From the NCBI GenBank assembly GCA_964638435.1, contig CAZXAY010000003.1, forward strand, positions 8,431 through 40,430: a stretch of DNA of 32,000 bases, in the 5' to 3' direction. Under the pieces are notes generated by a model. The model saw only the letters and a program-made list of their open reading frames with translations, made no database searches and was not told the DNA's origin. The stretch's first letter is position 1; each line of letters starts with the position of its first letter. Position numbers and translations under genes: made by a program. This DNA is from an uncultured Candidatus Saccharibacteria bacterium (GTDB taxonomy: Bacteria; Patescibacteriota; UBA1384; JAMDBS01; CAZXAY01). Shown here in pieces: positions 5,525-27,689 of the stretch.

Positions 5525-5776
5525 TTAAAATTCAAAATTCCCCCACTTCGCTCAATAGAGCTTCGAGGGACAAGCAATTTTTAATTTTTAATCAATGTTC
5601 AAAACTAAAATCTTAAATCTAAAAGTTAAAATTATAGTATTGAGTTTTTAAATTTAAGTTGTGGCTTTAAGTTTTTCGTTTTTACTTTTAAGTTAATAAC
5701 ATTTGAATTTGATCCGCCTAGGCATCGCTTATGGCGAGACTGGTTAAAAATTACAAATTAAAAATTTGAATTTAAA
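5525..5776. repeat. Composite of three hairpin modules filling the proS-tpiA spacer, two with GC-rich cores (5541-5575, 5714-5743)
   Basis: Module 1: aaaattcaaaattcc + ccccacttcgctcaatagagcttcgagggacaagc + aatttttaattttt. Module 2: aaaactaaaatcttaaatctaaaagtt ... aagtttttcgtttttacttttaagtt. Module 3: tttgaatttgat + ccgcctaggcatcgcttatggcgagactgg + ...aaatttgaattt. Confidence 0.75.
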
Positions 5777-7099
5777 TTACTTCATTAAGTAATTAATTAC
5801 ATCCTTTATCTCCACCAACTTCCCTTTTTCTTGATCACGTTTTTTAATTTCCACTGAATTCTCTTGTAATGTCCTCTCACTTATAATTATTCGCGTTGGG
5901 CAACCAATCAAATCAGCATCAGCGAACTTTTCCCCAGCACTAACTTCCCGATCATCATATAAAACTTCAACCCCAGCATCATATAGCTGATTATATAATT
6001 TCTCTACCTTAGTTTTTGGTTTTGAGTTTTGCTTGTCCCGCGAAGCTTTAGCGGAGTGGGAAGTTTTTAATTCTATCAGATGTACCTGATATGGTGCTAC
6101 CGATTCAGGCCAAACAATCCCTTTGTCATCATAATTACTCTCCACGATCGCACCCATATTTCTGCTAATACCAATCCCATAACAACCCATCAATACTGGC
6201 TGCCTTTGCCCTTTATCATCAATAAAATAATAATTAAATGATTTAGAAAATTTATCGTTGAGCTTAAATATGTTACCAACCTCAATGGTTCTATCAATTT
6301 TTCTGAGCTTTTTATTACCACACTGGGGACATACCCCCTTTTGTTTACCCTGACCTGCCCCGAGTATTCGCGAGGGGGCTGTGTCAAAGGGCTTCTCAGT
6401 AATCTCTTTATTAACTGCAATATTACATTTGTCACATACATGAATTTCATCTTCACCCGCCTCACATGGAACCTGAAATTCATGAGAATATTTACTAAAA
6501 GTTCCACCTGAGGCAAATGTTAAATAAACCTCTTTAAAACCTAACCTTTTAAAGATTTTAACGTAAGCTTTAGTCGCTTTTTCGTAATATTTATCAAGAT
6601 CTTCACTATCTTTATGAAATGAATATAAATCCTTCATCAAAAATTCTCTACCGCGGAGTAAACCTGATTTTGCCCTCACCTCATTACGAAATTTGTTTTG
6701 AATTTGATACACATAACGCGGTAAATCTTTGTAGGAACTAGCAAATTGTTGAACAAGTGGGGTTATAACCTCTTCATGGCTTTGATTTAGCACAAATTCA
6801 CTACCAGAATAAAGTTTTGTTTTAAAAAGTACATCAATATTCTCGCGACCAGTTGTCTTATATTTCTCAATTGATGTCAGAGTTGGCATTAATACCTCTA
6901 CACCACCAATATTATTAATTTCTTCCCGAACGATGTTCTCTATCTTTCTAAGAACCTTTAAACCTAATGGCAAAAAGGTATAAACTCCAGCCATTTCTTT
7001 ATCAATAAACCCACCTTTAATTAAAAGTTGGGCATTTAGTGATGTTTCCTCTTTTGGCACATTTTTTCGGGTTTTAGTAAAAAGCTGACTTAGTTTCAT
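5777..7099 (-). CDS. proS: Prolyl-tRNA synthetase (short form without large editing insertion)
   Basis: Class II motifs FRNEVRAKSGLLRGREFLMKDLYSFH and GCYGIGISR, CxxC...CxxC zinc ribbon, C-terminal anticodon-binding-like domain. Confidence 0.92.
   Translation of the reverse strand: MKLSQLFTKTRKNVPKEETSLNAQLLIKGGFIDKEMAGVYTFLPLGLKVLRKIENIVREEINNIGGVEVLMPTLTSIEKYKTTGRENIDVLFKTKLYSGSEFVLNQSHEEVITPLVQQFASSYKDLPRYVYQIQNKFRNEVRAKSGLLRGREFLMKDLYSFHKDSEDLDKYYEKATKAYVKIFKRLGFKEVYLTFASGGTFSKYSHEFQVPCEAGEDEIHVCDKCNIAVNKEITEKPFDTAPSRILGAGQGKQKGVCPQCGNKKLRKIDRTIEVGNIFKLNDKFSKSFNYYFIDDKGQRQPVLMGCYGIGISRNMGAIVESNYDDKGIVWPESVAPYQVHLIELKTSHSAKASRDKQNSKPKTKVEKLYNQLYDAGVEVLYDDREVSAGEKFADADLIGCPTRIIISERTLQENSVEIKKRDQEKGKLVEIKDVINYLMK
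6011..6068. repeat. In-frame repeat module inside proS (encodes KTSHSAKASRDKQNSKPKT)
   Basis: agtttttggttttgagttttgc + ttgtcccgcgaagctttagcggagtggg + aagttttt. The core is near-identical in pattern to intergenic cores at 5541-5575 (reverse orientation), 22623-22666 and 29970-30020. Confidence 0.75.
6325..6392. repeat. GC-rich in-frame module inside proS (encodes FDTAPSRILGAGQGKQKG)
   Basis: Contains acctgccccgagtattcgcgagggggct. It shares the ACCTGCC(C/T)CG word with gatA 28468-28479 and 28877-28887, and with the reverse complement of 19793-19804. Confidence 0.55.
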
Positions 7100-10976: not shown

Positions 10977-11135
10977 TAGACTTGTTACGTAATAATTTTT
11001 GTAGCGAAAGCTAAGGATTTTGAGTGAAAATAATGAAGAGTGAGCAAGTTGTAACAGAGTTACACTGACGAACTATGAATTATTTTTTAACCAAAATTCT
11101 TAGTTTGCAGTAAAAATGTTATTTCGTAATAAGTC
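10977..11135. mobile_element. MITE-like element, copy A (159 bp), in the rpsB-tsf spacer
   Basis: About 95% identical to 19726-19914 apart from a 30-nt insertion in that copy. Imperfect terminal inverted repeats tagacttgttacgtaataa... / ...ttatttcgtaataagtc(ta). Flanked by TAA/TAA (10974-10976, 11136-11138). Confidence 0.8.
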
Positions 11136-11146
11136 TAAGGTTATAT

Positions 11147-16804: not shown

Positions 16805-19399
16805 CTATATTTGATAAATACTGTTAATATTAGTACCCGTTGTAATGGTAAAACTAAAATTGACTCTATGAGCGTCCTTTAAATATCTCTTTAAATAATT
16901 AGCAATTTTTTCGCGATTGCTTAAAGCATGATAACTACCTTCTTGACCGGTAATATAAACCCCTGCTAAATTATTATCTTGCTGAAACTTTTTGGCAATC
17001 TCTAGCACTGACTCACAAAAAGCACCGGCATCAATTTTATCTAACCAATCCACATTGGGATTAAATCCCCGCAATAGTAGCGCCTTTTGTCCATTGATTT
17101 TTACAATATAAGCCTGGATATTAGCTCGCACGGATTGTTCATTCTCCACAATATTAATATGCAAATGATCATTTCTGTTAAATAGATTAGCATCCGAAGC
17201 AGTGCAAACTCCCGCTGAGGCTTTGGCGAAAAATGAACCAATATTTTTAGAAAAATATGCTTTTAATCCGCTAGTGGTAGTAACTACTTTTTCGCCTATA
17301 TCACTTTTTTCAAATTTATTAATTTCTTGGCTAATTTTTTCTCTATAAGATTTTAATACTTTTTCAAAAAGTACCTTGCCAAAAAGTTTGGCCATCCCCT
17401 CAATGGTATTTATTGACTGCCAGTCGATTTTCTCTTTTTCACTGCCAAATAATTTTTTTATTGCTTGCTGTCTCTTCGGAGTATTTAACAGTTCCTGTAT
17501 TTCTTTTGTTAAAATATCATTTCCTAGCAAATAATTTTTTAAAGCTGTTTGATAATTATCTTTAAAATATACTCCTAATATTTCTTTTAATTCCATAAGA
17601 TAGTTGTAGCTGTTTTGATTATCTAATTTGGAGTATCTTAAAATAAAATTTGTTACTAAATCATCTTGACTAATTAAACTAAGCAATTCTCCTAGTTCTG
17701 TTAGATTAAAATCCGTTTTGGACTTGGCTAAACCTAATAATAATTTATCCCATTCGATTTTAGGATTAGATTCTTGCGAATTTTCCCGCAAAAATAATTG
17801 TTTAAAGGAATTAAGAACATTAAAATCTGTTGTTTTATTTTCTTTTAATCTAAGTGATTTGTGGCTAGTTATTGTTAAAGGGTAACCTTCTTTGGGAAAA
17901 ATGTAATTTTTTATATCTCCAGTTTTATCCTCGAGTTGATCAATCATTTTTTTTACTTGCTCAAAACTCATCCCTATTGGTTTGTATGCTGAATAAACCA
18001 TTTCAACTAGAATATCCTCGTCCTTGGCAGGTAGTATATTTTTTATAGGTTCATTCTGAAAGAATTTGGGTTTTAATTGCCTAATTTGAGCGGATAATTC
18101 ACTTTTACCAGCATGGTCGGCATGACGATAACGATCAAAGATTATTGGCGTTAATGAATCTAAGTCAGTAAGGGCTTGAAAAATTTCTTGTTGATTACCC
18201 AGTACTGAGTAATCCGTCAATCTTGTATCGCACAAAGTATCAATAACAGTATTAAACTGATTAGGATATTCGGCAATTAATTTTCTTAAAAAGGGCAAAT
18301 GATTATCATCGCCAAGGAATTTTTGTAAATTGCTTGTCAAAAAATTCTTGTTGATTAAATTTAAACAAAAATATCTAAAAAATCGAGCGGGTATCTCTTT
18401 TTTACCCAAAAATTTCATAACCAAGCTACTACCTTTAGCGCTATCAATTTCTGCCAATTCTTTGATTATACGCGCCTCAAAAGAAATCTTTTTGAGATGT
18501 TTTTCTAAATCTTTTTCACTTGCTAGACCTTGAAAACCTAATTTCTGCAATAATTTAATGCTGTCATCTGATTCGATATGCTTTAAAGTTTCACATAATA
18601 ATTTAACAGTGGGTTTATCAACAGCAAATTGTAAATTAACAGCTTTTCCCAAATCTCTTGACGCTCTATCTTGCACTAATAGTTGTTGCCATTTATCTTT
18701 TTCATTAATGTATTTTTCTTTTAAAAACGGTGCTAATTCATGATCCATAATTATTGAGGCCATCTGTCTCTGATTTTCAGGCATTAAGTTGATAAAATCC
18801 TCTCTCTTATTTTCGTCTAAAACTAAAGCGTAGTTTTTTAATAAATCTGGATCACTTGCAACCGAGCTGGCAATTTTTTCCATTGCTGGCATTGGCATTT
18901 TTTCAGTTTCCCTTTTTTGGATTCCTAAAATCATTGCCTCCGCAAGCATACTTGAGGGATTAAATTTAGGTATCCCAGATGCCTGGTCAAGCATTTTTTT
19001 AGCGTAATTTATCGTTTCGCCGAAATTTAACTCCGCCAATTGCTCATGCTTAGCAACATCCGCCAATAAATAGGCGCTTAAATTTGGTGCCACATCTGCC
19101 ATTAACATTGCCTTTTGGCGATTTTTTTCACCCTTTTCATTCAAATAATTTTGTGCCTCTTCTTTGGTGACAACTACATTCCCATCGACCTCATTTTTAA
19201 CTAACGCCAAAGTTTCGTGATATTTATTTTTTAAACTTTCTAATTCAGGTGGTGGCAAGTTTAAAACTAATATTTTTAGTTCCTGTGATTTTTTTCTTAA
19301 ATCAGCCATCATAAAAATCATTGATTTTTCATCACTAGATAAAAATTGCGCTTGTTGATTTTCTATATTTTGATTATTGTTAATAAATTCATTCATCAT
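16805..19399 (-). CDS. Large hypothetical protein (864 aa), no recognisable domain
   Basis: Long uninterrupted ORF. Its ATGATG start overlaps the TGA stop of the RT remnant (ATGATGAATGA, 19389-19399). Mostly helical-looking, Lys/Glu/Leu-rich. The C-terminal 160 aa are more globular (GVCTASD...LLLRGFNP...ITGQEGSYHALSNR). Confidence 0.7.
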   Translation of the reverse strand: MMNEFINNNQNIENQQAQFLSSDEKSMIFMMADLRKKSQELKILVLNLPPPELESLKNKYHETLALVKNEVDGNVVVTKEEAQNYLNEKGEKNRQKAMLMADVAPNLSAYLLADVAKHEQLAELNFGETINYAKKMLDQASGIPKFNPSSMLAEAMILGIQKRETEKMPMPAMEKIASSVASDPDLLKNYALVLDENKREDFINLMPENQRQMASIIMDHELAPFLKEKYINEKDKWQQLLVQDRASRDLGKAVNLQFAVDKPTVKLLCETLKHIESDDSIKLLQKLGFQGLASEKDLEKHLKKISFEARIIKELAEIDSAKGSSLVMKFLGKKEIPARFFRYFCLNLINKNFLTSNLQKFLGDDNHLPFLRKLIAEYPNQFNTVIDTLCDTRLTDYSVLGNQQEIFQALTDLDSLTPIIFDRYRHADHAGKSELSAQIRQLKPKFFQNEPIKNILPAKDEDILVEMVYSAYKPIGMSFEQVKKMIDQLEDKTGDIKNYIFPKEGYPLTITSHKSLRLKENKTTDFNVLNSFKQLFLRENSQESNPKIEWDKLLLGLAKSKTDFNLTELGELLSLISQDDLVTNFILRYSKLDNQNSYNYLMELKEILGVYFKDNYQTALKNYLLGNDILTKEIQELLNTPKRQQAIKKLFGSEKEKIDWQSINTIEGMAKLFGKVLFEKVLKSYREKISQEINKFEKSDIGEKVVTTTSGLKAYFSKNIGSFFAKASAGVCTASDANLFNRNDHLHINIVENEQSVRANIQAYIVKINGQKALLLRGFNPNVDWLDKIDAGAFCESVLEIAKKFQQDNNLAGVYITGQEGSYHALSNREKIANYLKRYLKDAHRVNFSFTITTGTNINSIYQI

Positions 19400-20140
19400 C
19401 TAATACCTCCATTATTTCCCAGCTAAATTCATTTAATTTATGCTTGGAATGTTGTTTTATTAAACCATAATAACTTGACGCATTATTTATGTTTAGCCTG
19501 CTCTTAATCCTTTTTAAATTTCGTTTGTTCAAACTCCTTTTATCTGGGTATATTACAACTCCTAAAAATTTTATTCCGCGCCTAGCTTTAACTATAATGT
19601 CATTTTTTAAATTAATCTTTAAAAGTAAACTATTTTCTATAAACCTAATTGTATTTTCTCGTATTTCTTCTAATTTAGCAAGATCCTTATCTAAAATTAT
19701 AAAATCATCTCCATAGCGCAAATATTAGACTTGTTACGTAATAATTTTTGTAGCGAAAGCTAAGAATTTTGAGCCCGCCTTGACTCGGATCAGGCGAGGC
19801 AGGTGAAAATAATGAAGAGCGAGGAAGTTGTAACAGAGTTACGCTGACGAACTATGAATTATTTTTTAACCAAAATTATTAGTTTGTAGTAAAAATGTTA
19901 TTTCGTAATAAGTCTATTGTTTTATTTTTAATTTATGTTTAATAAACCTGTCTAACTCGTTCAAATAAATATTGGCAAAAATCTAACTAGTTAGGTTGCC
20001 AATTGGCAAGCCCTTTCTATTAAGACCCCCCCCCAATGTCTGTTGAATTGTCATTCTGAGCTTGCGAAGAATCTCTATTATAACCATCAATAACAAAATT
20101 GATTATCTTTTTAACATTTGGACAATCAACTCGTCTAAAA
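19389..20140 (-). pseudogene. DGR-type reverse transcriptase, decayed (5'-truncated, frameshifted, nonsense codon, split by MITE)
   Basis: My minus-strand translation gives ...RRVDCPNVKKIINFVIDGYNRDSSQAQNDNSTDIGGG (frameshift in the G9 run) LNRKGLPIGNLTS*IFANIYLNELDRFIKHKLKIKQ | MITE | YLRYGDDFIILDKDL...FLGVVIYPD...SSYYGLIKQHSKHKL. This covers RT motif 4 with the DGR-typical IGxxxSQ (Q codon is TAG here), motif 5 YGDD, and motifs 6-7. Confidence 0.8.
19726..19914. mobile_element. MITE-like element, copy B (189 bp), inserted in the RT gene, carrying a nested 30-nt GC hairpin (19774-19803)
   Basis: Same termini as copy A, flanked by TAT/TAT (19723-19725, 19915-19917). Deleting 19726-19917 (192 nt) joins ...KHKLKIKQ to YLRYGDDF in frame. 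Confidence 0.85.
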
Positions 20141-20161
20141 ATAAAATAATAAAATTAAAGA

Positions 20162-21283
20162 TTAAAGTCCAATGGTTTGTGGTAACATTACCGAGGAGCG
20201 AACGCCGGAGCCGGAAACGCCGAGATTGTCCCCGCTCAAATCAGCCTGACAGCCGTAGCGATCCCAACGGCAGACCGGCGCCCCACCGGAAACCAAAGAA
20301 GCTATTAAATAACAAGCTCTTGCTTGATCATCTATTTGCTGGTTAGTTTGTTGTAAATGAATAATTGCATAAATTAACCAATCTTGGATAACTAAACCCA
20401 TTTCATTAGCATATTGGGGATCTTCTTGAAGTTTTTTCAGATAATCTATTGGTGATTGGTTGGCTTCCAATTGTTTCCTTGCCTGACCTGAGCTATGTCG
20501 AAGGGTTTTACCCTGACCCTTTGCTGGTAAGTCTGGCAAATTTTCTATCAGTTTAATAGACCAGCCATTAGTGGGCTTAACTTTGTTAAGATACGCTTGA
20601 TATTGTTTATTCTTTTCTTTAGTAATTCCAGTAAGAAGCTCATTAAGGGTAAAACCTTTAAAGCTTGGATCAGTAAAGTCTTTGGGGTAATAGGTCATTT
20701 TAGTATTGCCATCTTGGTCTTCTTGATCACAATTAAGGTATCCATCCCAAATAAAGATTGGATCAAATTTAGTAGAATCATTATCATCTTCTTTGAGTTC
20801 TAAGGACGAGCCATCTGTAGATAGGAGTTTACCTTCTTTATGTTTTTTAATGATTAACTGTTTGTATCTTGATATTAGTATTTCCAGTGGTAGAACCATA
20901 GGAGTAAGAAGCAATTTAGTAAATCCTTGAGATTCTTTAAGTTCAAGTATTTGCAGTTGTTCGGGGGTGATTTGGGAAAGGATTTCTTCATAGGTGGGAA
21001 TAGGATATTCTTTGATTTTAGTACTGTCATGGGGGTCAACTCCAAGAACACCAATATCTTGGCAGTCTAGGAGTATGTCAATAACTCCTGTTTCATTAAG
21101 AGTTTTAACTTGGGACTCCCATTGAACTTTAAGCTGGAGCTTTTCTGAAAGAGCTTCTAGTTTAACTTGATGCTCAGTTTTTTCTGGAGTATCAGTAAGG
21201 CTGAGATCCTTCGCTCCACTAAGACTAACATCGGGTTGAGTTTCTTGAGCTTGATTAAATTGTTGGGGTAATTGTTCGGACAT
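20162..21283 (-). CDS. Candidate DGR variable protein, paralog A (373 aa)
   Basis: Paralogous to 22752..23816 over most of its length. The C-terminal ~40 codons are GC-rich, A-poor and hyperdivergent, ending in a conserved VMLPQT. The stop lies about 20 nt from the RT remnant. Confidence 0.75.
   Translation of the reverse strand: MSEQLPQQFNQAQETQPDVSLSGAKDLSLTDTPEKTEHQVKLEALSEKLQLKVQWESQVKTLNETGVIDILLDCQDIGVLGVDPHDSTKIKEYPIPTYEEILSQITPEQLQILELKESQGFTKLLLTPMVLPLEILISRYKQLIIKKHKEGKLLSTDGSSLELKEDDNDSTKFDPIFIWDGYLNCDQEDQDGNTKMTYYPKDFTDPSFKGFTLNELLTGITKEKNKQYQAYLNKVKPTNGWSIKLIENLPDLPAKGQGKTLRHSSGQARKQLEANQSPIDYLKKLQEDPQYANEMGLVIQDWLIYAIIHLQQTNQQIDDQARACYLIASLVSGGAPVCRWDRYGCQADLSGDNLGVSGSGVRSSVMLPQTIGL
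20193..20311 (-). other. Putative variable region (VR) of paralog A
   Basis: Roughly two-thirds G+C by eye, in a ~30% GC genome. In the 75-nt core, A is the rarest coding-strand base (8/75 by my count). Bounded 3' by a block identical to paralog B (ggtttgtggtaacattacc, 20174-20192). Confidence 0.6.
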
Positions 21284-21287
21284 AATA

Positions 21288-21974
21288 TTATTTTGAATTT
21301 AATTTTAATAAAAATAACAGTTCTGGAATTAGTTGATCTTTTATCCAAATTTTTTGTTTACTATCAACAACCTCACCCAAACTATGTAAAATGTTGATAT
21401 TTGATTTTTTTTCTAACAACTTTATGATTTCTTTTAAATACTCTTTAGTATTTTTACCTGTTCTCAATTTTATAATATTTTCATTAATAGGCCAATTATT
21501 TTTTAAGAAAAAATATACATCAAACAAATCTCGGTTAGCGAGTTTTTTCCTATCCAATACGGCTACCAATTTATTAGCAAAAATACAATCTTTTGTCATA
21601 GTTAAAATTGGCAATCCTAAATAATTTTTTATCTCAAAAGTATTTTCATTAATCAATCTTGTAGAAATTTCTATCTTAATATTATGGGCCTCATTTTTGT
21701 ATGACAATAAAAAGTAAATCGTATTAGCTTTTATTTTTTTGTCCTTTATTTCTCCAATGTCTACTAAAATTCCTAATAACTTTTTGAATACAAAATCGAC
21801 TCTGTCTAACTGCGACAAATTAAAATCTAAGTCGGTAGAAAACCTAGGTAAGTTATAAAAAAGATAACAAGCCGTCCCGCCTTTAAAACCTAAAATTGGC
21901 GCTAGATCTCTATCAGAATAAATAGCATATAATATTTTGCTTAACACTACTTCATGTTCCTTTTTATCAAGCAT
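21288..21974 (-). CDS. AbiEii-family nucleotidyltransferase toxin (pair 1)
   Basis: GFKGGTACYLFYNLPRFSTDLDFN signature. Overlaps the upstream AbiEi-like gene by 8 nt. Paralog of 25203..25913. Confidence 0.8.
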   Translation of the reverse strand: MLDKKEHEVVLSKILYAIYSDRDLAPILGFKGGTACYLFYNLPRFSTDLDFNLSQLDRVDFVFKKLLGILVDIGEIKDKKIKANTIYFLLSYKNEAHNIKIEISTRLINENTFEIKNYLGLPILTMTKDCIFANKLVAVLDRKKLANRDLFDVYFFLKNNWPINENIIKLRTGKNTKEYLKEIIKLLEKKSNINILHSLGEVVDSKQKIWIKDQLIPELLFLLKLNSK

Positions 21975-22554
21975 ATAATTTCCTTAATTTAGCTAATTTT
22001 TTTTCTAAACTCTTATTATCATAAATTTTAACTATTTCACTGCAAATCTGCCAATCAATTTTTGCCAAATTGTCAAAATAAAAATCACCATATAGGTATA
22101 GGGTGTCGAGCAAGGCTCTCTCACAAGACGCAACATCATAATTCTCCTTTCTTACAATTCCACTTGAATTTAATAATACTGAATCTTTGATTTTTTTATA
22201 AACATATTTTTGTTTATCAATTATAATTTCTTTTGATAATTTAGAAATAGAATAAATTGCGCTATCATATTGGAATATTATTCCCGCCCTTAATAAAACA
22301 GTTTGTAAACTAATATATGATGGAATAATTATTTTATTTGCAAGTTCATCTTTTAAATAATTACTATCAATTGCATACAATCCATTTCTTACTCTATTTA
22401 GTTGGCCATTTTTGACTAACCGATATATTTTAGTTTTTAAATAATTTGGCTCAGGTATTTGCCAAATTAAAATTAGGTCTTTAGTACTAAAAACCGTTTT
22501 TTTACTTTTTAACAGTAGTGTTATAGAATTATCTATCATATGTTTGTATCTCAT
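21967..22554 (-). CDS. AbiEi-family antitoxin/transcriptional regulator (pair 1); true start probably the ATG at 22539
   Basis: N-terminal wHTH-like region (TKDLILIWQ...YRLVKNGQLNRVRNGLY), C-terminal ...CERALLDTLYL. Aligns with pair 2 from MIDNS. Confidence 0.75.
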   Translation of the reverse strand: MRYKHMIDNSITLLLKSKKTVFSTKDLILIWQIPEPNYLKTKIYRLVKNGQLNRVRNGLYAIDSNYLKDELANKIIIPSYISLQTVLLRAGIIFQYDSAIYSISKLSKEIIIDKQKYVYKKIKDSVLLNSSGIVRKENYDVASCERALLDTLYLYGDFYFDNLAKIDWQICSEIVKIYDNKSLEKKLAKLRKLYA

Positions 22555-22556
22555 AA

Positions 22557-22574
22557 GTAATCATATTTGATTAC
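22557..22574. promoter_or_regulatory. Inverted repeat gtaatca-tatt-tgattac upstream of AbiEi pair 1 (candidate operator)
   Basis: Perfect 7-bp arms. The consensus AAGTAATnATATTTGnTTAC is shared with the repeat upstream of pair 2 (26492-26516). Confidence 0.55.
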
Positions 22575-22751
22575 ATTTATATTATACATCCTAATAAATA
22601 TACTTGCAACTTTTGGCACCTCGCCCCACTTGTCCCGCGTAGCTTTATGCGAAGTGGGAAGACGGGTTTATTTACCAAATTATTCAATTGAAAAAAAATC
22701 TTTTTTAAAGTTCAAAATTAAAGGTTAAATATTAAAATCAAAATTCAAAGT

Positions 22752-23816
22752 TCAATTGGTTTGTGGTAACATTACCACGGGACGGGAACCGCAGTCCCCG
22801 TACGAGAAGTCAGGGAAGTCTCCGTACAAGTCCGCCCGACGGTTGTCGCGACTCCAATAGTAGCGCAGCACTTTGCCAGCTAGGTATGATCCAGTTAACC
22901 AACAAGCTTTCCCTTTGCTTCGCCAGTCATCTATTTGCTGATTGGTTTCTTGTAATTGGGTAATAGCGTAAATGAGCCAACTTTCTAAGGTTAAACCTTG
23001 TTCGTGGGTATATTGTGGGTCTGTTTGGAGTTGGTTTAGATAATCTATTGGGGTTTGGTTGGCTTCTAATTGTTTTCTTTCATTAAGGGTTTTGCCTTGG
23101 TTTTGGGCAGGTAAATCAGGGTTGTCTTCGATAAATAGTATTTGCCAACCATTAGTGGATTTAAGCTTATCAAGTCTTAGTTGATGTTGGTGATTATTAG
23201 CTTTTCCTGATATTAATTCTGATTTAACAAAGCCTTGGTGATTATCTTTATCAAATTGCTCTGGATAGTAAATTAGTCTGCCATCAGTGTCAGCATTCTT
23301 AATATCATCCCAAACATAGACTGGGTCAAATTTAGTAGAATCATTATCATCTTTTTTGAGTTCTAAAGACGAGCCATCAGTAGCTAAGAGTTTACCTTCT
23401 TGATGTTTTTTAATGAGTAATTGCTTGTATCTATCGATTAAGGTTTCAAGGTGCGCGCCAATTGGAACTAGTAGCATTTTAGTAAAGCCTTGTTCTTGTT
23501 TAGTTTCTAATACTTTAAGTTGTTCTGGGGTAATTTTAGATAAGATTTCTTCATAGGTGGAAATAGGATATTCTTTGATTTTAGTACTGTCATGGGGGTC
23601 AACTCCAATAACACCAATATCTTGGCAGTCTAGGAGTATGTCAATAACTCCTGTTTCATTAAGAGTTTTAACTTGGGACTCCCATTGAACTTTAAGCTGG
23701 AGCTTTTCTGAAAGAGCTTCAAGACGTAGGAGGTGTTCAGATTCTCTTGTTTCGGTGTTAGTCTGAGATAAGTCTGGGTCAGTCGGTATTAAGTTGTAAG
23801 GCAATTGTTCTGGCAT
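22752..23816 (-). CDS. Candidate DGR variable protein, paralog B (354 aa)
   Basis: Same family as 20162..21283, with a GC-rich hypervariable C-terminus ...LRYYWSRDNRRADLYGDFPDFSYGDCGSRPVVMLPQTN. The W...RA...P...G(x)RPVV pattern resembles C-type-lectin/FGE-type DGR VR scaffolds. Confidence 0.75.
   Translation of the reverse strand: MPEQLPYNLIPTDPDLSQTNTETRESEHLLRLEALSEKLQLKVQWESQVKTLNETGVIDILLDCQDIGVIGVDPHDSTKIKEYPISTYEEILSKITPEQLKVLETKQEQGFTKMLLVPIGAHLETLIDRYKQLLIKKHQEGKLLATDGSSLELKKDDNDSTKFDPVYVWDDIKNADTDGRLIYYPEQFDKDNHQGFVKSELISGKANNHQHQLRLDKLKSTNGWQILFIEDNPDLPAQNQGKTLNERKQLEANQTPIDYLNQLQTDPQYTHEQGLTLESWLIYAITQLQETNQQIDDWRSKGKACWLTGSYLAGKVLRYYWSRDNRRADLYGDFPDFSYGDCGSRPVVMLPQTN
22777..22901 (-). 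other. Putative variable region (VR) of paralog B
   Basis: GC-rich, with 14/75 A on the coding strand in the core. Bounded 3' by the identical block ggtttgtggtaacattacc (22758-22776). Confidence 0.6.
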
Positions 23817-23820
23817 AATA

Positions 23821-25095
23821 TTATTTTAGATTTAATAACCACTTATAAGTTGGCAAAACTTTTATTGTTTTATTGTTAATATTAATTATTTTTTCTTTAT
23901 CAGTTGTTAATATTATACTACTTTTAAGATCTAGCTCATCCATTGCTTGAATTAATGCCTTTATTTCTCTTTCTCTCGTATCGGTTTTTTCGATACTTTC
24001 ACAAACCTGAATTAATTCTATTATATCCCTTCCTTTTCTAATAACAAAATCAACTTCTAAATTATTTTTTGTTTTATAGTAATAAATTGAGTCGCCTCGC
24101 CGCTTAAGCTCAATAAAAACCATATTTTCCAAAAATTTTCCACTATTTTTAGAAAAACTAAATGAAATGGCGTCAGCAAGCCCGTTATCAATTGAATATA
24201 TCTTTTTAGGCGCAATAAATTGTTGTGAAACTTTATAAGAAAAAATATTCACTGTAAAAAATAAGTAACTATTTTCAAAATAATCTGTATAGCTTTTTAC
24301 CGTATTAACACTACCCAATTTTAAAATTTCTTTTAATTTATTAAAGGAAGTTAAGTTTCCCAGGTTACTAAAATAATATAACGCTAATTCGCGAAGTGAT
24401 TTTACTTCCTGAACATCATAACGAGTTACAATGTCACGATACAAAATATCTTCGTAAATTCTTTTTAAAATATCTTTATTTTCAAACTTTAAATATTCTG
24501 GTAATCCACCAGATTTTAAATATTGGTTGAAATATGATTTTAATTTTGCTCTTTCTTTAGTATAAGATGTGGCATTACTTGGTACTATATATCCCTTAAA
24601 ATCAAGATATTCTCTAAAAGAAAACGGATATAGTTCATAAGGAATATATCGACCCGTTAATTTTGTGCCCAACTCACGACTCAACATTGAGGCATTGGAG
24701 CCTGTTAAGTAAAATTTGAAACCTTTATCCTGCATTCTTCTAACAAAATTTTCCCAACCAATAATATTTTGAATTTCATCAAAAAAGAAAACTGTTTTTT
24801 CTCCAAACAATTCTAACAATATTTCATATAACTTATTAAAATCTTCTTTTTGAAAATTAATTAATCGTTCATCCTCAAAATTAAAATAATAACACTTGTT
24901 CTTATAAAATTTATTCATTATCTGCATTAATAATGTTGATTTACCCACTCTTCTTAAGCCAGAAATAACGATACTATGTGGAATTTTCAATGATTCCTCT
25001 AATTTAAGCATTGTATCTCTTTCAATCCCCACATCTTTTTTTTCTAAATCTTTGGCTTGCTCCATGATTATTTCTTTAAGTAAATTTAAATCCAT
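23821..25095 (-). CDS. AAA-type ATPase with DUF4143-like C-terminus
   Basis: Walker A GLRRVGKST, Walker B FFFDEIQ, 424 aa. Architecture typical of the COG1373-type 'ATP-binding protein'. Confidence 0.8.
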   Translation of the reverse strand: MDLNLLKEIIMEQAKDLEKKDVGIERDTMLKLEESLKIPHSIVISGLRRVGKSTLLMQIMNKFYKNKCYYFNFEDERLINFQKEDFNKLYEILLELFGEKTVFFFDEIQNIIGWENFVRRMQDKGFKFYLTGSNASMLSRELGTKLTGRYIPYELYPFSFREYLDFKGYIVPSNATSYTKERAKLKSYFNQYLKSGGLPEYLKFENKDILKRIYEDILYRDIVTRYDVQEVKSLRELALYYFSNLGNLTSFNKLKEILKLGSVNTVKSYTDYFENSYLFFTVNIFSYKVSQQFIAPKKIYSIDNGLADAISFSFSKNSGKFLENMVFIELKRRGDSIYYYKTKNNLEVDFVIRKGRDIIELIQVCESIEKTDTREREIKALIQAMDELDLKSSIILTTDKEKIININNKTIKVLPTYKWLLNLK

Positions 25096-25202: not shown

Positions 25203-25913
25203 TTATTTAATAACTGATTGATAATTTTTAAGCATAAAAACTGTTTCTAATTTTAATTTATTTTTAACCCAAATTTTTTCTTTTTCACCTAATAGCTCTC
25301 CAAGTCCTTGTAAAATTTGATTATTTTCTATCTTTTCTATCTCAACAATACAATCAGATAAATAGTTTTTAATGTTTTTCCCTGTTCTATTCTTGATTAT
25401 TTCAAGGTCGATATCCCAACTATTTTTGCTAAAATAATAGATATCATAAACATCACGCGTAACCACTCTACTTCGTTGAGTTAATGCCACTAGTTTACTA
25501 GCAAAAAGATAGTTTTTTTTAGCAATTAACATTGAAATACCAAGATATTCTTTTAATTCATAATGATCTCTAATATTTTTGATAAGTTTTCTAATATTAA
25601 TTTCAATCTTAATATTGTGATCACCATCACCATAGGAAAGAAGAAAAAAAATAGTATATCTTTCTATTCGCTGGTCTTTTACTTCGCCATATTTTTTTAA
25701 AATAGCTAATATCTTTTTAAATAATATCTCGACAATTAATTTATCAGCAGTTAGTAAATCAAAATCTAAATCCACTGAAAATCGTGGTAAATTATAGAAA
25801 AAATAGGCGCAGGTACCGCCCTTAAACCCTAAATACGATGAAATAGACATATCACTATAAATGTCCTTTAATATTTGACCCATAATTAATTGGTGATTTT
25901 CTTTATTTAACAT
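25203..25913 (-). CDS. AbiEii-family nucleotidyltransferase toxin (pair 2)
   Basis: GFKGGTCAYFFYNLPRFSVDLDFD signature. Overlaps the upstream antitoxin gene by 11 nt. Confidence 0.8.
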   Translation of the reverse strand: MLNKENHQLIMGQILKDIYSDMSISSYLGFKGGTCAYFFYNLPRFSVDLDFDLLTADKLIVEILFKKILAILKKYGEVKDQRIERYTIFFLLSYGDGDHNIKIEINIRKLIKNIRDHYELKEYLGISMLIAKKNYLFASKLVALTQRSRVVTRDVYDIYYFSKNSWDIDLEIIKNRTGKNIKNYLSDCIVEIEKIENNQILQGLGELLGEKEKIWVKNKLKLETVFMLKNYQSVIK

Positions 25914-26475
25914 AGTTTTGATGATATTTATTTAAACGTTTAATTAATTGTTGATTATCATAAATCTTAACTAATTCAAAACATTTTTGCCAATCAAGTG
26001 GTTGGAGATTGTCAAAATAGTATTCATCAAAAAGGTAAAGCGTATCCAAAAAAGCTCTTTCTGGTGATGCGATGCTATAGTTACCTTGATTAATTATTCC
26101 ATTTGAATTATATAATAAGTTATTTTTTAGTTTTCTAAAATTAATAGAATGCTTATCAACAATTATCGTTTTTGACCAAGGACCGACAACAAAAATTGTA
26201 TCATAATGTTGAAAGATAATGCCAGCCCCTCGCAAAACAGTTTCGAAACTAATATATGATGGGATATAAATACTTGTGGCTAATTCTTTGGAATCATAAT
26301 TTCTGTCTTTAGCAAATATGCCTCTAGTAAGTCTGATTAACAAACCTTTTTTTATGTAATAGTAAATTTTAGCTTTCAAATTTTTCGAATTAGTTTCTTG
26401 CCAAATTAAAGCTAGATCTTTATTAGTCAAGATTGTTTTGGGATTCTGATAGAGTTTAGCAATTAGATTATCCAT
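25903..26475 (-). CDS. AbiEi-family antitoxin/transcriptional regulator (pair 2)
   Basis: Paralog of 21967..22554 (NKDLALIWQ..., ...PERAFLDTLYL). Confidence 0.75.
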   Translation of the reverse strand: MDNLIAKLYQNPKTILTNKDLALIWQETNSKNLKAKIYYYIKKGLLIRLTRGIFAKDRNYDSKELATSIYIPSYISFETVLRGAGIIFQHYDTIFVVGPWSKTIIVDKHSINFRKLKNNLLYNSNGIINQGNYSIASPERAFLDTLYLFDEYYFDNLQPLDWQKCFELVKIYDNQQLIKRLNKYHQNYVK

Positions 26476-26699: not shown

Positions 26700-27689
26700 C
26701 TATTGTAATAAACTTATTATTATTTTTATCATTACATCTTTTTCTTTTGGATCACTAGTAGCAACCAAAAGTGCCAAAGAAACAAGTGTATTGTTATTTA
26801 TTTTCCTTTGTAAATCTAGGGTATATAAATAATTATTTTCTTTTAAAAAATAAACAAATAGTATAGAGGCGATTCGTTTATTGCCATCTGCAAAGGGGTG
26901 ATCTTTAATGGTTAAATACAACAAATTTGCTGCTTTTTCTTCTATATTATTATATAACTCTTTACTATCAAAAGTTTGATAAATAGAGCTAATTATCGCC
27001 TCGAATTTATGATCATATTCTTGACCAAATAAATCACCTGCTTGACCATCACTTTTTAACTCAGCTTTAATAGCAATAATGGTATTTTTACATTTTTCAT
27101 AGTCTAGCGCAAATTTTGCTTTTGTAGTTTTAGCAATTTTAATTTTACCCTGATCATATTCATCAAGTAATTTTAAAGATTTAGCAAATTCACCTAGTAA
27201 TGATAACAATTCTCGTGATTTATCTTGCAAAACATAGTTATCTGCCTTTTTTTCGATAAAAGTAATCGTTTCTTTGAGTAAAACTAATTTATCTTTATAC
27301 TCTAACATTTTTTTGTCATTAACAGCATAACCACTTAATAAATAATTTTTTAGAGTATTGGTTGCCCAAATTCTAAACTGGGTTGCTCTTTTTGAGTTAA
27401 CGCGATAACCAACAGATATAATAGCATCTAGATTATATAATCTAGTTTTATATTTTTGTCCAGTAACACCCACATGTTCCAAAATGGAACATGTGCTTTG
27501 CTCAGAAAGTTCATTCGACTTATAAACATTAGCTAAATGTTTAGTAATAGCAGGTCTCTGAATATCGAATAATTGAGCAATTTGATCTTGACCTAACCAA
27601 ACCGTTTCCTTATCAACTTTAACATCAATCTGTGCATTCCCAGATTCATCTTTATATATTATTATTTTGTTTGTTTCTTCTTTTTTCAT
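26700..27689 (-). CDS. RhuM-like N-terminal domain fused to a Fic/Doc domain
   Basis: N-terminus ...WLGQDQIAQLFDIQRPAITKHLANVY...YNLDAIISVGYRVNSKRATQFRIWAT (RhuM family). C-terminus HPFADGNKRIA matches the Doc-type HxFx(D/E)(A/G)NKR variant of the Fic motif. Confidence 0.8.
   Translation of the reverse strand: MKKEETNKIIIYKDESGNAQIDVKVDKETVWLGQDQIAQLFDIQRPAITKHLANVYKSNELSEQSTCSILEHVGVTGQKYKTRLYNLDAIISVGYRVNSKRATQFRIWATNTLKNYLLSGYAVNDKKMLEYKDKLVLLKETITFIEKKADNYVLQDKSRELLSLLGEFAKSLKLLDEYDQGKIKIAKTTKAKFALDYEKCKNTIIAIKAELKSDGQAGDLFGQEYDHKFEAIISSIYQTFDSKELYNNIEEKAANLLYLTIKDHPFADGNKRIASILFVYFLKENNYLYTLDLQRKINNNTLVSLALLVATSDPKEKDVMIKIIISLLQ

What the first reader, a model, noticed from the sequence alone, without database searches (positions are those of the whole stretch)
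20162..23816. Two paralogous genes with GC-rich, adenine-poor hypervariable 3' ends next to the RT: candidate DGR variable proteins without a visible template repeat
Genes A (20162..21283) and B (22752..23816) are clear paralogs. Their last ~40 codons before a shared VMLPQT tail are very different: ...SGGAPVCRWDRYGCQADLSGDNLGVSGSGVRSSV versus ...AGKVLRYYWSRDNRRADLYGDFPDFSYGDCGSRPVV. The divergent block is sharply bounded at its 3' side by a 19-nt identical sequence. It is GC-rich in an AT-rich genome, and A is depleted on the coding strand (8/75 and 14/75 by my count). In 13 of the 25 aligned core codons, changes are confined to positions 1-2 with position 3 unchanged (gtc/cgc, tgc/tac, cgt/tat, gat/agt, tac/gac, ggc/aac, tgt/cgt, agc/tac, ggc/gac, gcg/gtg, ccg/ctg, cag/cgg). 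This is what A-specific mutagenesis of AAY/NAN template codons produces. The conserved scaffold W..R...(R/Q)ADL.GD....S....G.R..V resembles C-type-lectin/FGE-type VRs that end in GFRxV. Five synonymous third-position differences also occur, so ordinary paralog divergence is not excluded. I found no TR by eye anywhere in the window.
Basis: partly seen in the sequence, partly recalled or inferred. Interest (0 to 1): 0.85.

Follow-up and report, generated by a model that had tools for sequence, protein, structure and literature searches.

The report
Orphaned DGR targets beside dead retroelement
Two sister genes end in hypervariable tails of the kind written by a diversity-generating retroelement, but the retroelement next to them has lost its template and its enzyme gene is wrecked, so the tails are most likely frozen relics of a known kind of system.

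Summary
Genes A (20162-21283, minus strand) and B (22752-23816, minus strand) are 64% identical paralogs. Each ends in a 99-105 nt block that is GC-rich and adenine-poor, bounded 3' by 20 identical bases. No template repeat (TR) exists in the window.

The DGR reading is supported by relatives. A and B belong to an unannotated family (about 960 clusters at 50% identity) whose last ~35 codons vary throughout. In at least eight related loci the same tail pairs with a downstream TR, mismatches fall almost only at TR adenines, and a reversed bAvd gene and an RT follow.

In this window that cassette is dead:
- About 1.1 kb (TR, avd and the first ~148 RT codons) is missing just after gene A.
- The RT remnant is frameshifted at a G9 tract.
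- A TAG replaces the Q of IGNLTSQ.
- A 191-nt MITE is inserted.

A and B differ at 33% of sites where relatives' TRs never carry A; a live two-target relative shows 0/84. One TR therefore cannot be maintaining both.

Verdict: a new member of a known kind, most likely orphaned variable proteins. A remote DGR acting in trans is not excluded.

Side observation: RT genes of this clade are routinely split at a simple-sequence repeat.

The parts
20162..21283 (-). Gene A: 373-aa member of an unannotated family of DGR variable (target) proteins. The ORF is intact.
   Evidence: ORF. 48 homologs, E down to 1e-125. 961 representative clusters match the family profile. No Pfam hit. AF2 model has pLDDT 90.
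20192..20290 (-). VR-A: 99-nt variable region (33 codons, SGGAPVCRWDRYGCQADLSGDNLGVSGSGVRSS). It lacks 6 nt relative to the family and to an older assembly.
   Evidence: 8% A and 68% GC. Codon register matches relatives' TRs. P0049 has two extra residues, GY.
20173..20192 (-). 20-nt 3' boundary identical in A and B (GGTAATGTTACCACAAACCA). It sits where TR/VR identity ends in relatives, so it is an IMH-like candidate.
   Evidence: The functional role is inferred, not tested.
22752..23816 (-). Gene B: 354-aa paralog of gene A. The ORF is intact.
   Evidence: (P0003).
22776..22880 (-). VR-B: 105-nt variable region of canonical family length (AGKVLRYYWSRDNRRADLYGDFPDFSYGDCGSRPV).
   Evidence: 15% A and 62% GC. 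Alignment to relatives' TRs.
22757..22776 (-). Copy of the 20-nt 3' boundary in gene B.
19389..20139 (-). DGR reverse-transcriptase pseudogene. Only residues ~148-318 of a ~320-aa RT remain, carrying four separate lesions.
   Evidence: tblastn of intact relatives' RTs covers only residues 166-207 and 210-318. Three-frame translations. The stitched remnant hits RVT_1 at profile positions 118-205.
20113..20161 (-). Deletion junction. Homology between the A and B downstream flanks ends at about 20131, and RT resumes at about residue 148 (FRRVDCPNVKKIINFVIDGY). TR, avd and the RT 5' half are absent.
   Evidence: Alignment A2. Frame-2 translation. No avd remnant by tblastn. Relatives place TR and bAvd here.
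20026..20034 (-). G9 tract in the RT linker between motif 3 and motif 4. The reading frame changes here.
   Evidence: Relatives carry G9, G11, (GA)n or (TC)n at the same position.
19983..19985 (-). TAG stop codon in place of the Q of the DGR-RT motif IGNLTSQ.
19726..19916 (-). 191-nt MITE-like insertion with ~20-nt terminal inverted repeats. It splits the RT between KIKQ and YLRYGDD.
   Evidence: Relatives' RTs align continuously across this point. A second copy lies at 10977-11137.
21288..22554 (-). AbiEi-like plus AbiEii toxin-antitoxin pair between genes B and A. This is context, not part of the DGR.
   Evidence: Pfam PF08843 and PF13338.

Best explanation
Genes A and B are two paralogous variable proteins of a diversity-generating retroelement (DGR) lineage typical of CPR bacteria.

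In the ancestral, working state the cassette read target gene - TR - (bAvd on the opposite strand) - RT. TR RNA was reverse-transcribed with misincorporation opposite adenines. The cDNA then overwrote the last ~35 codons of the target up to a fixed 3' boundary. That randomised roughly a dozen AAY codons and left an adenine-poor, GC-rich tail.

In this genome the cassette downstream of gene A has decayed. A deletion of about 1.1 kb removed TR, avd and the first ~148 RT codons. The RT remnant also carries a frameshift at a G9 tract, a stop codon in motif 4 and a MITE insertion.

The two tails are therefore most likely frozen records of past mutagenesis in genes that are still intact and presumably still used.

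Shown here: family membership; TR/VR pairs with adenine-specific mismatches in relatives; absence of TR and avd from the window; the RT lesions; and the incompatibility of A and B with one common TR.

Inferred: that the deletion is real rather than an assembly artefact, that no other DGR in the genome rewrites these tails, and what the proteins do.
For: Family:
- 48 homologs, all with a hypervariable C-terminal ~35 residues on the scaffold SG.VP...W.R..R.A.L....P.......G.RSSV.I.
- 961 representative clusters match the profile.

Relatives:
- RT homologs lie 1-7 kb downstream of family genes in 11 loci.
- TR/VR pairs with mismatches at TR adenines: L025 19/20, L046 21/25, L073 18/24, L008 21/31 and L043 25/37. 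In L008 and L043 nearly all of the other mismatches lie in the flanks beyond the repeat. L016, L024 and L005 pair in the same way.
- bAvd (PF22296, 51.6 bits) sits reversed between TR and RT. This is architecture B3 of Wu et al. 2018 (PMC5758913).

Window:
- No TR and no avd.
- Intact RTs align only from about residue 166 onward, with an in-frame stop and a 201-nt gap.
- That gap is a repeated MITE.
- A-versus-B discordance is 16/23 at proxy TR-adenine sites against 19/57 at non-A sites (p = 0.0055).
- The codon-position pattern is inverted in the VR.
- A live two-target relative, L046, shows 0/84 discordance at non-A sites and 17/28 at A sites.
- Two assemblies of this organism have the same VRs apart from a 6-nt indel.
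Against: - The rest of the genome could not be searched. The degenerate TR pattern found nothing in the metagenome collection, not even the VRs themselves, so that scan is uninformative.
- Remote targets served in trans do occur in this family. One Uhrbacteria genome has a single TR and more than 20 dispersed paralogs, some with only 2-8 non-adenine mismatches.
- The VRs show no compositional decay: 8-15% A, the same as live VRs in relatives. Inactivation is therefore recent, or rewriting continues.
- Older assemblies broke between gene A and the RT fragment, and a Logan contig starts inside the MITE. Only the 40-kb contig supports the stretch 19917-20161.
Confidence: 0.68

Rival explanations
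1. The tails are still live DGR targets. A second, intact DGR elsewhere in the genome (TR, avd and RT) rewrites VR-A or VR-B in trans, and the local RT remnant is a dead duplicate.
For: Trans targets exist in this family: Uhrbacteria LCMS01 has one TR and many remote VRs with few non-adenine mismatches. Both VRs keep the composition of freshly written VRs. They share an identical 20-nt 3' boundary plus about 45 nt of similar flank, as expected if a targeting signal is under selection.
Against: A and B differ at 19/57 sites that are non-A in all five relatives' TRs, so at most one of them can match any single TR. The VRs are identical in two assemblies except for an indel that homing would erase. 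The only other DGR recovered from the same dataset (L128, AMFJ01024789.1) has an unrelated TR.
Confidence: 0.22
2. Assembly artefact. The real genome has TR, avd and a full RT after gene A, and the 40-kb contig skipped about 1.1 kb when joining two older contigs.
For: In the 2012 assembly gene A is the first gene of one contig and the RT fragment is the first gene of another. A Logan contig begins inside the MITE. Repeats (the MITE, the G9 tract, VR/TR) are classic break points.
Against: The MITE flanks are contiguous in RT coordinates (residue 207 | 210) and in the same frame, which argues for a true insertion. The remnant carries independent lesions (the TAG in motif 4, the frame change at G9) that a skipped segment would not create. 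A VR/TR collapse would join VR to the sequence after TR, not to RT codon ~148.
Confidence: 0.07
3. No DGR was ever involved. The tails diverged by ordinary mutation under diversifying selection.
For: A third of the non-adenine sites also differ, and synonymous differences are present.
Against: Homologous tails in at least eight relatives have a TR with adenine-specific mismatches. A DGR-type RT remnant lies directly downstream. Differences are enriched at relatives' TR-adenine positions, and the codon-position pattern is inverted.
Confidence: 0.03

Closest known systems
CPR-type DGR cassettes of architecture B3, TR-(avd)-RT (Wu et al. 2018, PMC5758913; DGR clade 2 of Roux et al. 2021, PMC8144416)
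   Same: Relatives of genes A and B show exactly this layout: a target with a C-terminal VR, then TR, a reversed bAvd and an RT. As both papers report for CPR targets, the target has no recognisable Pfam or transmembrane domain.
   Different: The window keeps only the two targets and the 3' half of the RT as a pseudogene. TR and avd are gone.
Bordetella phage BPP-1 DGR (Mtd / TR / Avd / Brt), the prototype (from my own knowledge of the literature)
   Same: VR at the 3' end of the target. Adenine-specific TR-to-VR changes centred on AAY codons. A sharp 3' boundary where TR/VR identity ends. An IGxxxSQ-type RT motif.
   Different: Chromosomal CPR context. The avd gene is on the opposite strand. 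The target has no sequence similarity to Mtd, and its C-type-lectin fold is not demonstrated here. The element is inactive.
Multi-target DGRs with remote variable genes, here Candidatus Uhrbacteria GW2011_GWE2_46_68 (LCMS01 loci)
   Same: The same protein family occurs as several paralogs per genome. VRs range from near-perfect adenine-only matches to heavily diverged ones.
   Different: That genome still has a TR and both RT halves, whereas the window has neither. With only two paralogs and no TR, the position of A and B on that gradient cannot be measured directly.
Decayed DGR cassettes in relatives: L024 and L018
   Same: The RT is reduced to its C-terminal ~110 residues next to a family target gene.
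   Different: L024 keeps its TR and a clean adenine-only TR/VR pair. The window lost the TR and kept more of the RT.

Membership tests
Diversity-generating retroelement (complete system) | Reverse transcriptase of the DGR clade with the (I/L/V)GxxxSQ motif | tested here: met
   The remnant reads GLPIGNLTS*IFANIYLNELD...YLRYGDD. It hits RVT_1 at 30.7 bits. It is 50-62% identical to RTs that sit next to TR/VR pairs. It is a pseudogene: the Q codon is TAG and the N-terminal ~148 residues are missing.
Diversity-generating retroelement (complete system) | A template repeat that matches the variable region except at TR adenines | tested here: not met
   No TR in the 32-kb window. The feature is met in relatives L005, L008, L016, L024, L025, L043, L046 and L073. 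The rest of the genome was not searchable.
Diversity-generating retroelement (complete system) | Variable region at the 3' end of a target ORF, adenine-poor relative to its TR | tested here: met
   VR-A is at 20192-20290 and VR-B at 22776-22880, with 8% and 15% A against 37-39% in the rest of the genes. They lie in the same register as relatives' VRs.
Diversity-generating retroelement (complete system) | Accessory protein Avd | tested here: not met
   tblastn of three relatives' bAvd proteins against the window gave nothing below E = 0.8. Relatives have bAvd, PF22296.
Diversity-generating retroelement (complete system) | IMH-type 3' boundary that directs homing | tested here: inconclusive
   A 20-nt identical block and a similar ~45-nt flank follow both VRs. 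Without a TR, the IMH/IMH* relation cannot be checked.
Diversity-generating retroelement (complete system) | Ongoing site-restricted diversification in the population | not testable with these tools
   No read data were available. Two assemblies give identical VRs apart from a 6-nt indel.
Unannotated CPR/archaeal DGR target family (~300-aa C-terminal module) | Full-length homology to family members that have a proven TR/VR pair | tested here: met
   phmmer E-values from 1e-15 to 1e-125. tblastn finds 106 relatives in genome contigs. Profile search gives 798 clusters at E <= 1e-10, with the module always ending at the protein's C-terminus.
C-type-lectin-fold DGR variable proteins (Mtd, TvpA, AvpA type) | VR displayed on a C-type-lectin fold | tested here: inconclusive
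   The AF2 model is confident (pLDDT 90, pTM 0.88), but Foldseek finds no PDB match at E <= 1e-3. The best non-significant matches are C-type lectins (4uxm TM 0.42, 5b1w TM 0.46). Nothing was found in BFVD. The model of the C-terminal part alone is poor (pLDDT 61).
FGE-sulfatase / DUF1566 VR domains | Pfam match to PF03781 or PF07603 | tested here: not met
   No Pfam family at E <= 0.01 for A or B. None shared among the 24 C-terminal domains at E <= 1. PDB sequence profile search found nothing.

The most novel reading that the evidence does not exclude
The RT lineage to which the window's dead RT belongs carries a slippage-prone simple-sequence repeat inside the RT gene, in the loop between motif 3 and motif 4. 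The repeat is (GA)7-22, (TC)16-22, G9 or G11. In most assembled genomes it holds the two RT halves in different reading frames.

This could be a built-in switch for hypermutation. It might act by slipped-strand ON/OFF phase variation, or by transcriptional or translational slippage that yields a trickle of full-length RT. On this reading the window's G9 tract (20026-20034) is the relic of that switch in a cassette that has since died.

I found no description of this in the searchable literature.
Probability: 0.4. Interest if true: 0.7.

Novelty: new member of a known kind. Interest (0 to 1): 0.36.

Why it matters
The result gives a functional label, DGR variable protein, to two hypothetical genes and to a large family with no Pfam model (about 960 clusters at 50% identity). 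The family is found in CPR bacteria and in some MAGs labelled as archaea.

It also documents a clear end-state of a DGR: the targets outlive the TR, avd and RT.

In practical terms, tools that find DGRs through the RT and TR will miss such orphan targets. An adenine-poor, GC-rich 3' tail in an AT-rich genome is a usable marker for them.

The side observation on repeat-split RT genes, if real, would bear on how cells restrain a costly mutator.

Tried and rejected
- Degenerate TR pattern (VR base or A at each site, with anchors at conserved non-A sites) against metagenome contigs: 0 hits, and not even the VRs themselves. The scan is uninformative. The pattern itself works on the window.
- Exact-protein look-ups meant to recover the rest of the contig or older contigs mostly failed. 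Two returned only short contigs.
- Rfam and tRNA scans of the window: nothing.
- The first two relatives fetched (L001, L002) had no TR or RT within 8 kb. This shows remote or orphan members are common, not that the family is unrelated to DGRs.
- The GC-rich hairpin downstream of gene B was considered as a DGR target-recognition hairpin and rejected. It folds no better than 12 of 200 shuffles (z = -1.7), and it is a 30-nt repeat found three times in the window.
- The 201-nt gap in the RT was considered as a displaced TR and rejected. It is a MITE with terminal inverted repeats and a second copy.
- Modelling the C-terminal domain alone gave pLDDT 61, so its fold search is meaningless.
- A single TR for both VRs was rejected on the non-adenine discordance.
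- No homology was found between the large genes that follow the RT: 864 aa in the window, 714 aa in L158 and 829 aa in L170.


Full report
**What is in the sequence.** Both genes lie on the minus strand: gene A at 20162..21283 (373 aa) and gene B at 22752..23816 (354 aa). They are 64% identical in protein.

The variable blocks are VR-A at 20192-20290 and VR-B at 22776-22880. Each is followed by 20 identical bases, GGTAATGTTACCACAAACCA. VR-A has 8% A and 68% GC, and VR-B has 15% A and 62% GC. The rest of the two genes has 37-39% A and 36% GC, and the window as a whole has 31% GC.

Outside the tails the paralogs differ at codon positions 1/2/3 by 0.30/0.20/0.46, which is the usual pattern. Inside the tails the values are 0.52/0.52/0.39. 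No TR is present on either strand. An adenine-tolerant sliding scan and a degenerate pattern hit only the two VRs.

**What the genes are.** Neither protein matches Pfam. A database search found 48 homologs. In the alignment, every one ends in about 35 hypervariable residues on a fixed scaffold, SG.VP...W.R..R.A.L....P.......G.RSSV.I. A profile search of 1.84 billion representatives found 961 clusters, 798 of them at E <= 1e-10. The ~300-aa module always sits at the protein's C-terminus.

Related loci come mostly from CPR bacteria, with some from MAGs labelled Asgard or Bathyarchaeota. One Uhrbacteria genome holds more than 20 copies.

**Why this is a DGR target family.** A stitched translation of the window's RT remnant finds RT homologs 1-7 kb downstream of family genes in 11 related loci. 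Between target and RT these loci hold a repeat of the tail in which the mismatches fall at the repeat's adenines:
- L025: 19 of 20
- L046: 21 of 25
- L073: 18 of 24
- L008: 21 of 31 and L043: 25 of 37, with nearly all of the remaining mismatches in the flanks beyond the repeat
- L016, L024 and L005 pair in the same way

A 114-aa gene on the opposite strand between TR and RT is bAvd (PF22296, 51.6 bits). This is architecture B3, TR-(avd)-RT, which Wu et al. report for 90% of CPR DGRs (PMC5758913). Roux et al. note that CPR targets usually lack recognisable domains (PMC8144416).

**What happened in this window.** Intact RTs from relatives are 318-351 aa. They align to the window only at residues ~166-207 (20057-19926) and 210-318 (19724-19395). 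The lesions, in order along the minus strand, are:
- Deletion junction. Homology between the A and B downstream flanks ends near 20131, about 30 nt after gene A's stop. The RT resumes there at about residue 148.
- G9 tract at 20026-20034, where the reading frame changes.
- TAG at 19983-19985, replacing the Q of IGNLTSQ.
- A 191-nt element at 19726-19916, which has ~20-nt terminal inverted repeats and splits KIKQ from YLRYGDD. A second copy lies at 10977-11137.

No avd remnant exists. By comparison with relatives, the missing stretch covers the spacer, TR, avd and 444 nt of RT, about 1.1 kb in total. That size is an estimate from spacings in L008, L016 and L043.

**Are the tails still being written?** I placed A and B in codon register with five relatives' TRs. 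A and B differ at 16/23 sites where at least four TRs have A, and at 19/57 sites where none does (Fisher p = 0.0055). The enrichment fits past adenine mutagenesis.

The 33% discordance at non-adenine sites is close to the paralogs' background divergence of 32%. It contrasts sharply with a live relative that has two targets and one TR: in L046 the two VRs differ at 0/84 non-A sites and 17/28 A sites. One TR therefore cannot be maintaining both tails.

Two assemblies of this organism give identical VRs except for a 6-nt indel in VR-A. These are records EKD56358.1 and EKD56361.1, contigs ACD_58C00213 and ACD_58C00036. From memory, this is the Rifle aquifer ACD58 lineage, later named Berkelbacteria.

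Two things argue against 'frozen'. The VRs keep the composition of freshly written ones. And trans targets are real in this family: in the Uhrbacteria genome, non-adenine mismatches to the single TR range from 2 to about 40.

I could not search the rest of the genome. The metagenome pattern scan returned nothing, not even the VRs, so it says nothing.

**Structure.** The full-length AF2 model is confident (pLDDT 90, pTM 0.88). It has no significant neighbour in the PDB or BFVD. The top non-significant PDB matches are C-type lectin domains, with target-normalised TM 0.33-0.46. The predicted order helix-helix-strand-strand-strand-strand over residues ~278-366 is compatible with that fold. The test remains inconclusive. 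The C-terminal part modelled alone is poor. Sequence searches against the PDB and Pfam found nothing.

**Verdict on the finding.** Genes A and B are DGR variable proteins of a large unannotated family, sitting next to a decayed cassette. This is a new member of a known kind. I put 0.68 on frozen relics, 0.22 on continued rewriting of one tail by an unseen DGR, 0.07 on an assembly artefact and 0.03 on no DGR at all.

**Side observation: split RT genes.** I recovered both RT halves in 89 loci.
- 12 carry a simple-sequence repeat in the motif 3-4 linker. In 8 of them the halves are in different frames.
- 77 lack the repeat, and 76 of those are in frame.
- No half contains a stop codon.

Several out-of-frame loci have clean adenine-only TR/VR pairs (L016, L046, L005, L073).

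Searching the protein database with the RT C-half gave 120 best hits of 110-249 aa, most about 144 aa and several beginning MPIGNLTSQ. None was full length. A Falkowbacteria locus shows the same (GA)10 and the same 194-aa plus 144-aa ORF pair in nine assemblies. Another locus shows G9 in three assemblies, and a third shows (GA)10.

Both +1 and -1 offsets occur. L043 and L080 carry (TC)16 and (TC)22, and both are in frame.

Candidate readings are phase variation, transcriptional or translational slippage, or a two-polypeptide RT. I could not discriminate among them. I found no description in the searchable literature.

Noticed in passing
window 20026-20034; L004 17780-17900, L005 13430-13520, L016 4680-4775, L039 16110-16185, L043 1980-2100, L046 4820-4910, L073 14395-14500, L158 2930-3060, L167 3410-3530, L170 2417-2537: RT genes of this DGR clade carry a simple-sequence repeat in the linker between RT motifs 3 and 4: (GA)7-22, (TC)16-22, G9 or G11. 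In most assemblies the N- and C-halves are in different frames, although both halves are free of stops. The nearest 120 database relatives of the RT C-half are all called as short ORFs, mostly about 144 aa.
   Followed up: partly
window 19726-19916 and 10977-11137: A MITE-like element of about 160-190 nt with ~20-nt terminal inverted repeats (TAGACTTATTACG...CGTAACAAGTCTA) is present twice. The copy inside the RT remnant has an extra 30-nt GC-rich segment.
   Followed up: partly
window 22629-22661, 6032-6063, 5542-5574: A GC-rich ~30-nt motif (CCCACTTCGC..TAAAGCT.CGCGGGACAAG) occurs three times in the window. One copy lies downstream of gene B. It folds into a modest hairpin (z = -1.7).
   Followed up: partly
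window ~20990-21160 and ~23553-23723: The DNA encoding residues ~51-110 of genes A and B is 98-100% identical, while the rest of the genes differ by about 30%. This suggests recent gene conversion between the paralogs. The older assembly of gene B differs by one residue (I/L) in this block.
   Followed up: no
window 21288-22554, 25203-26475, 23821-25095, 26700-27689: Genes A and B are each the last gene of a run of defence-type genes. There are two AbiEi/AbiEii pairs, an AAA_14/DUF4143 ATPase directly upstream of B, and a RhuM/Fic protein. The ~20 nt upstream of both start codons is also duplicated.
   Followed up: no
L035-L072 (LCMS01 contigs of Candidatus Uhrbacteria GW2011_GWE2_46_68); TR at L039 15167-15290: One genome holds more than 20 paralogs of the family on many contigs and a single TR. 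Non-adenine mismatches to that TR range from 2 to about 40, a gradient from serviced to decayed VRs.
   Followed up: partly
L024 11235-11919; L018 787-1035: These are further decayed cassettes. In L024 the TR is followed directly by only the last ~107 residues of RT, yet the TR/VR pair is clean and adenine-only.
   Followed up: no
L128 (AMFJ01024789.1) 1-1748: A different DGR from the same metagenome. The VR end is at 1-95 and the TR at ~440-545. An ORF on the opposite strand that may be avd (not checked) lies at ~600-960. A G9 tract at ~953-961 sits just before the RT match, which begins at 987. Its TR is unrelated to VR-A and VR-B.
   Followed up: no
L001 9156-10337: The gene downstream of family member P0039 shares that member's ~60-residue N-terminal segment, then continues with leucine-rich-repeat-like units instead of the variable-protein module.
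   Followed up: no
window 16805-19399; L158 3440-5584; L170 2947-5436: A large gene (864, 714 and 829 aa) starts within a few bases of the RT stop in the window and in two relatives. The L170 protein has a VWA domain. No pairwise similarity between the three was detected by BLASTP.
   Followed up: partly
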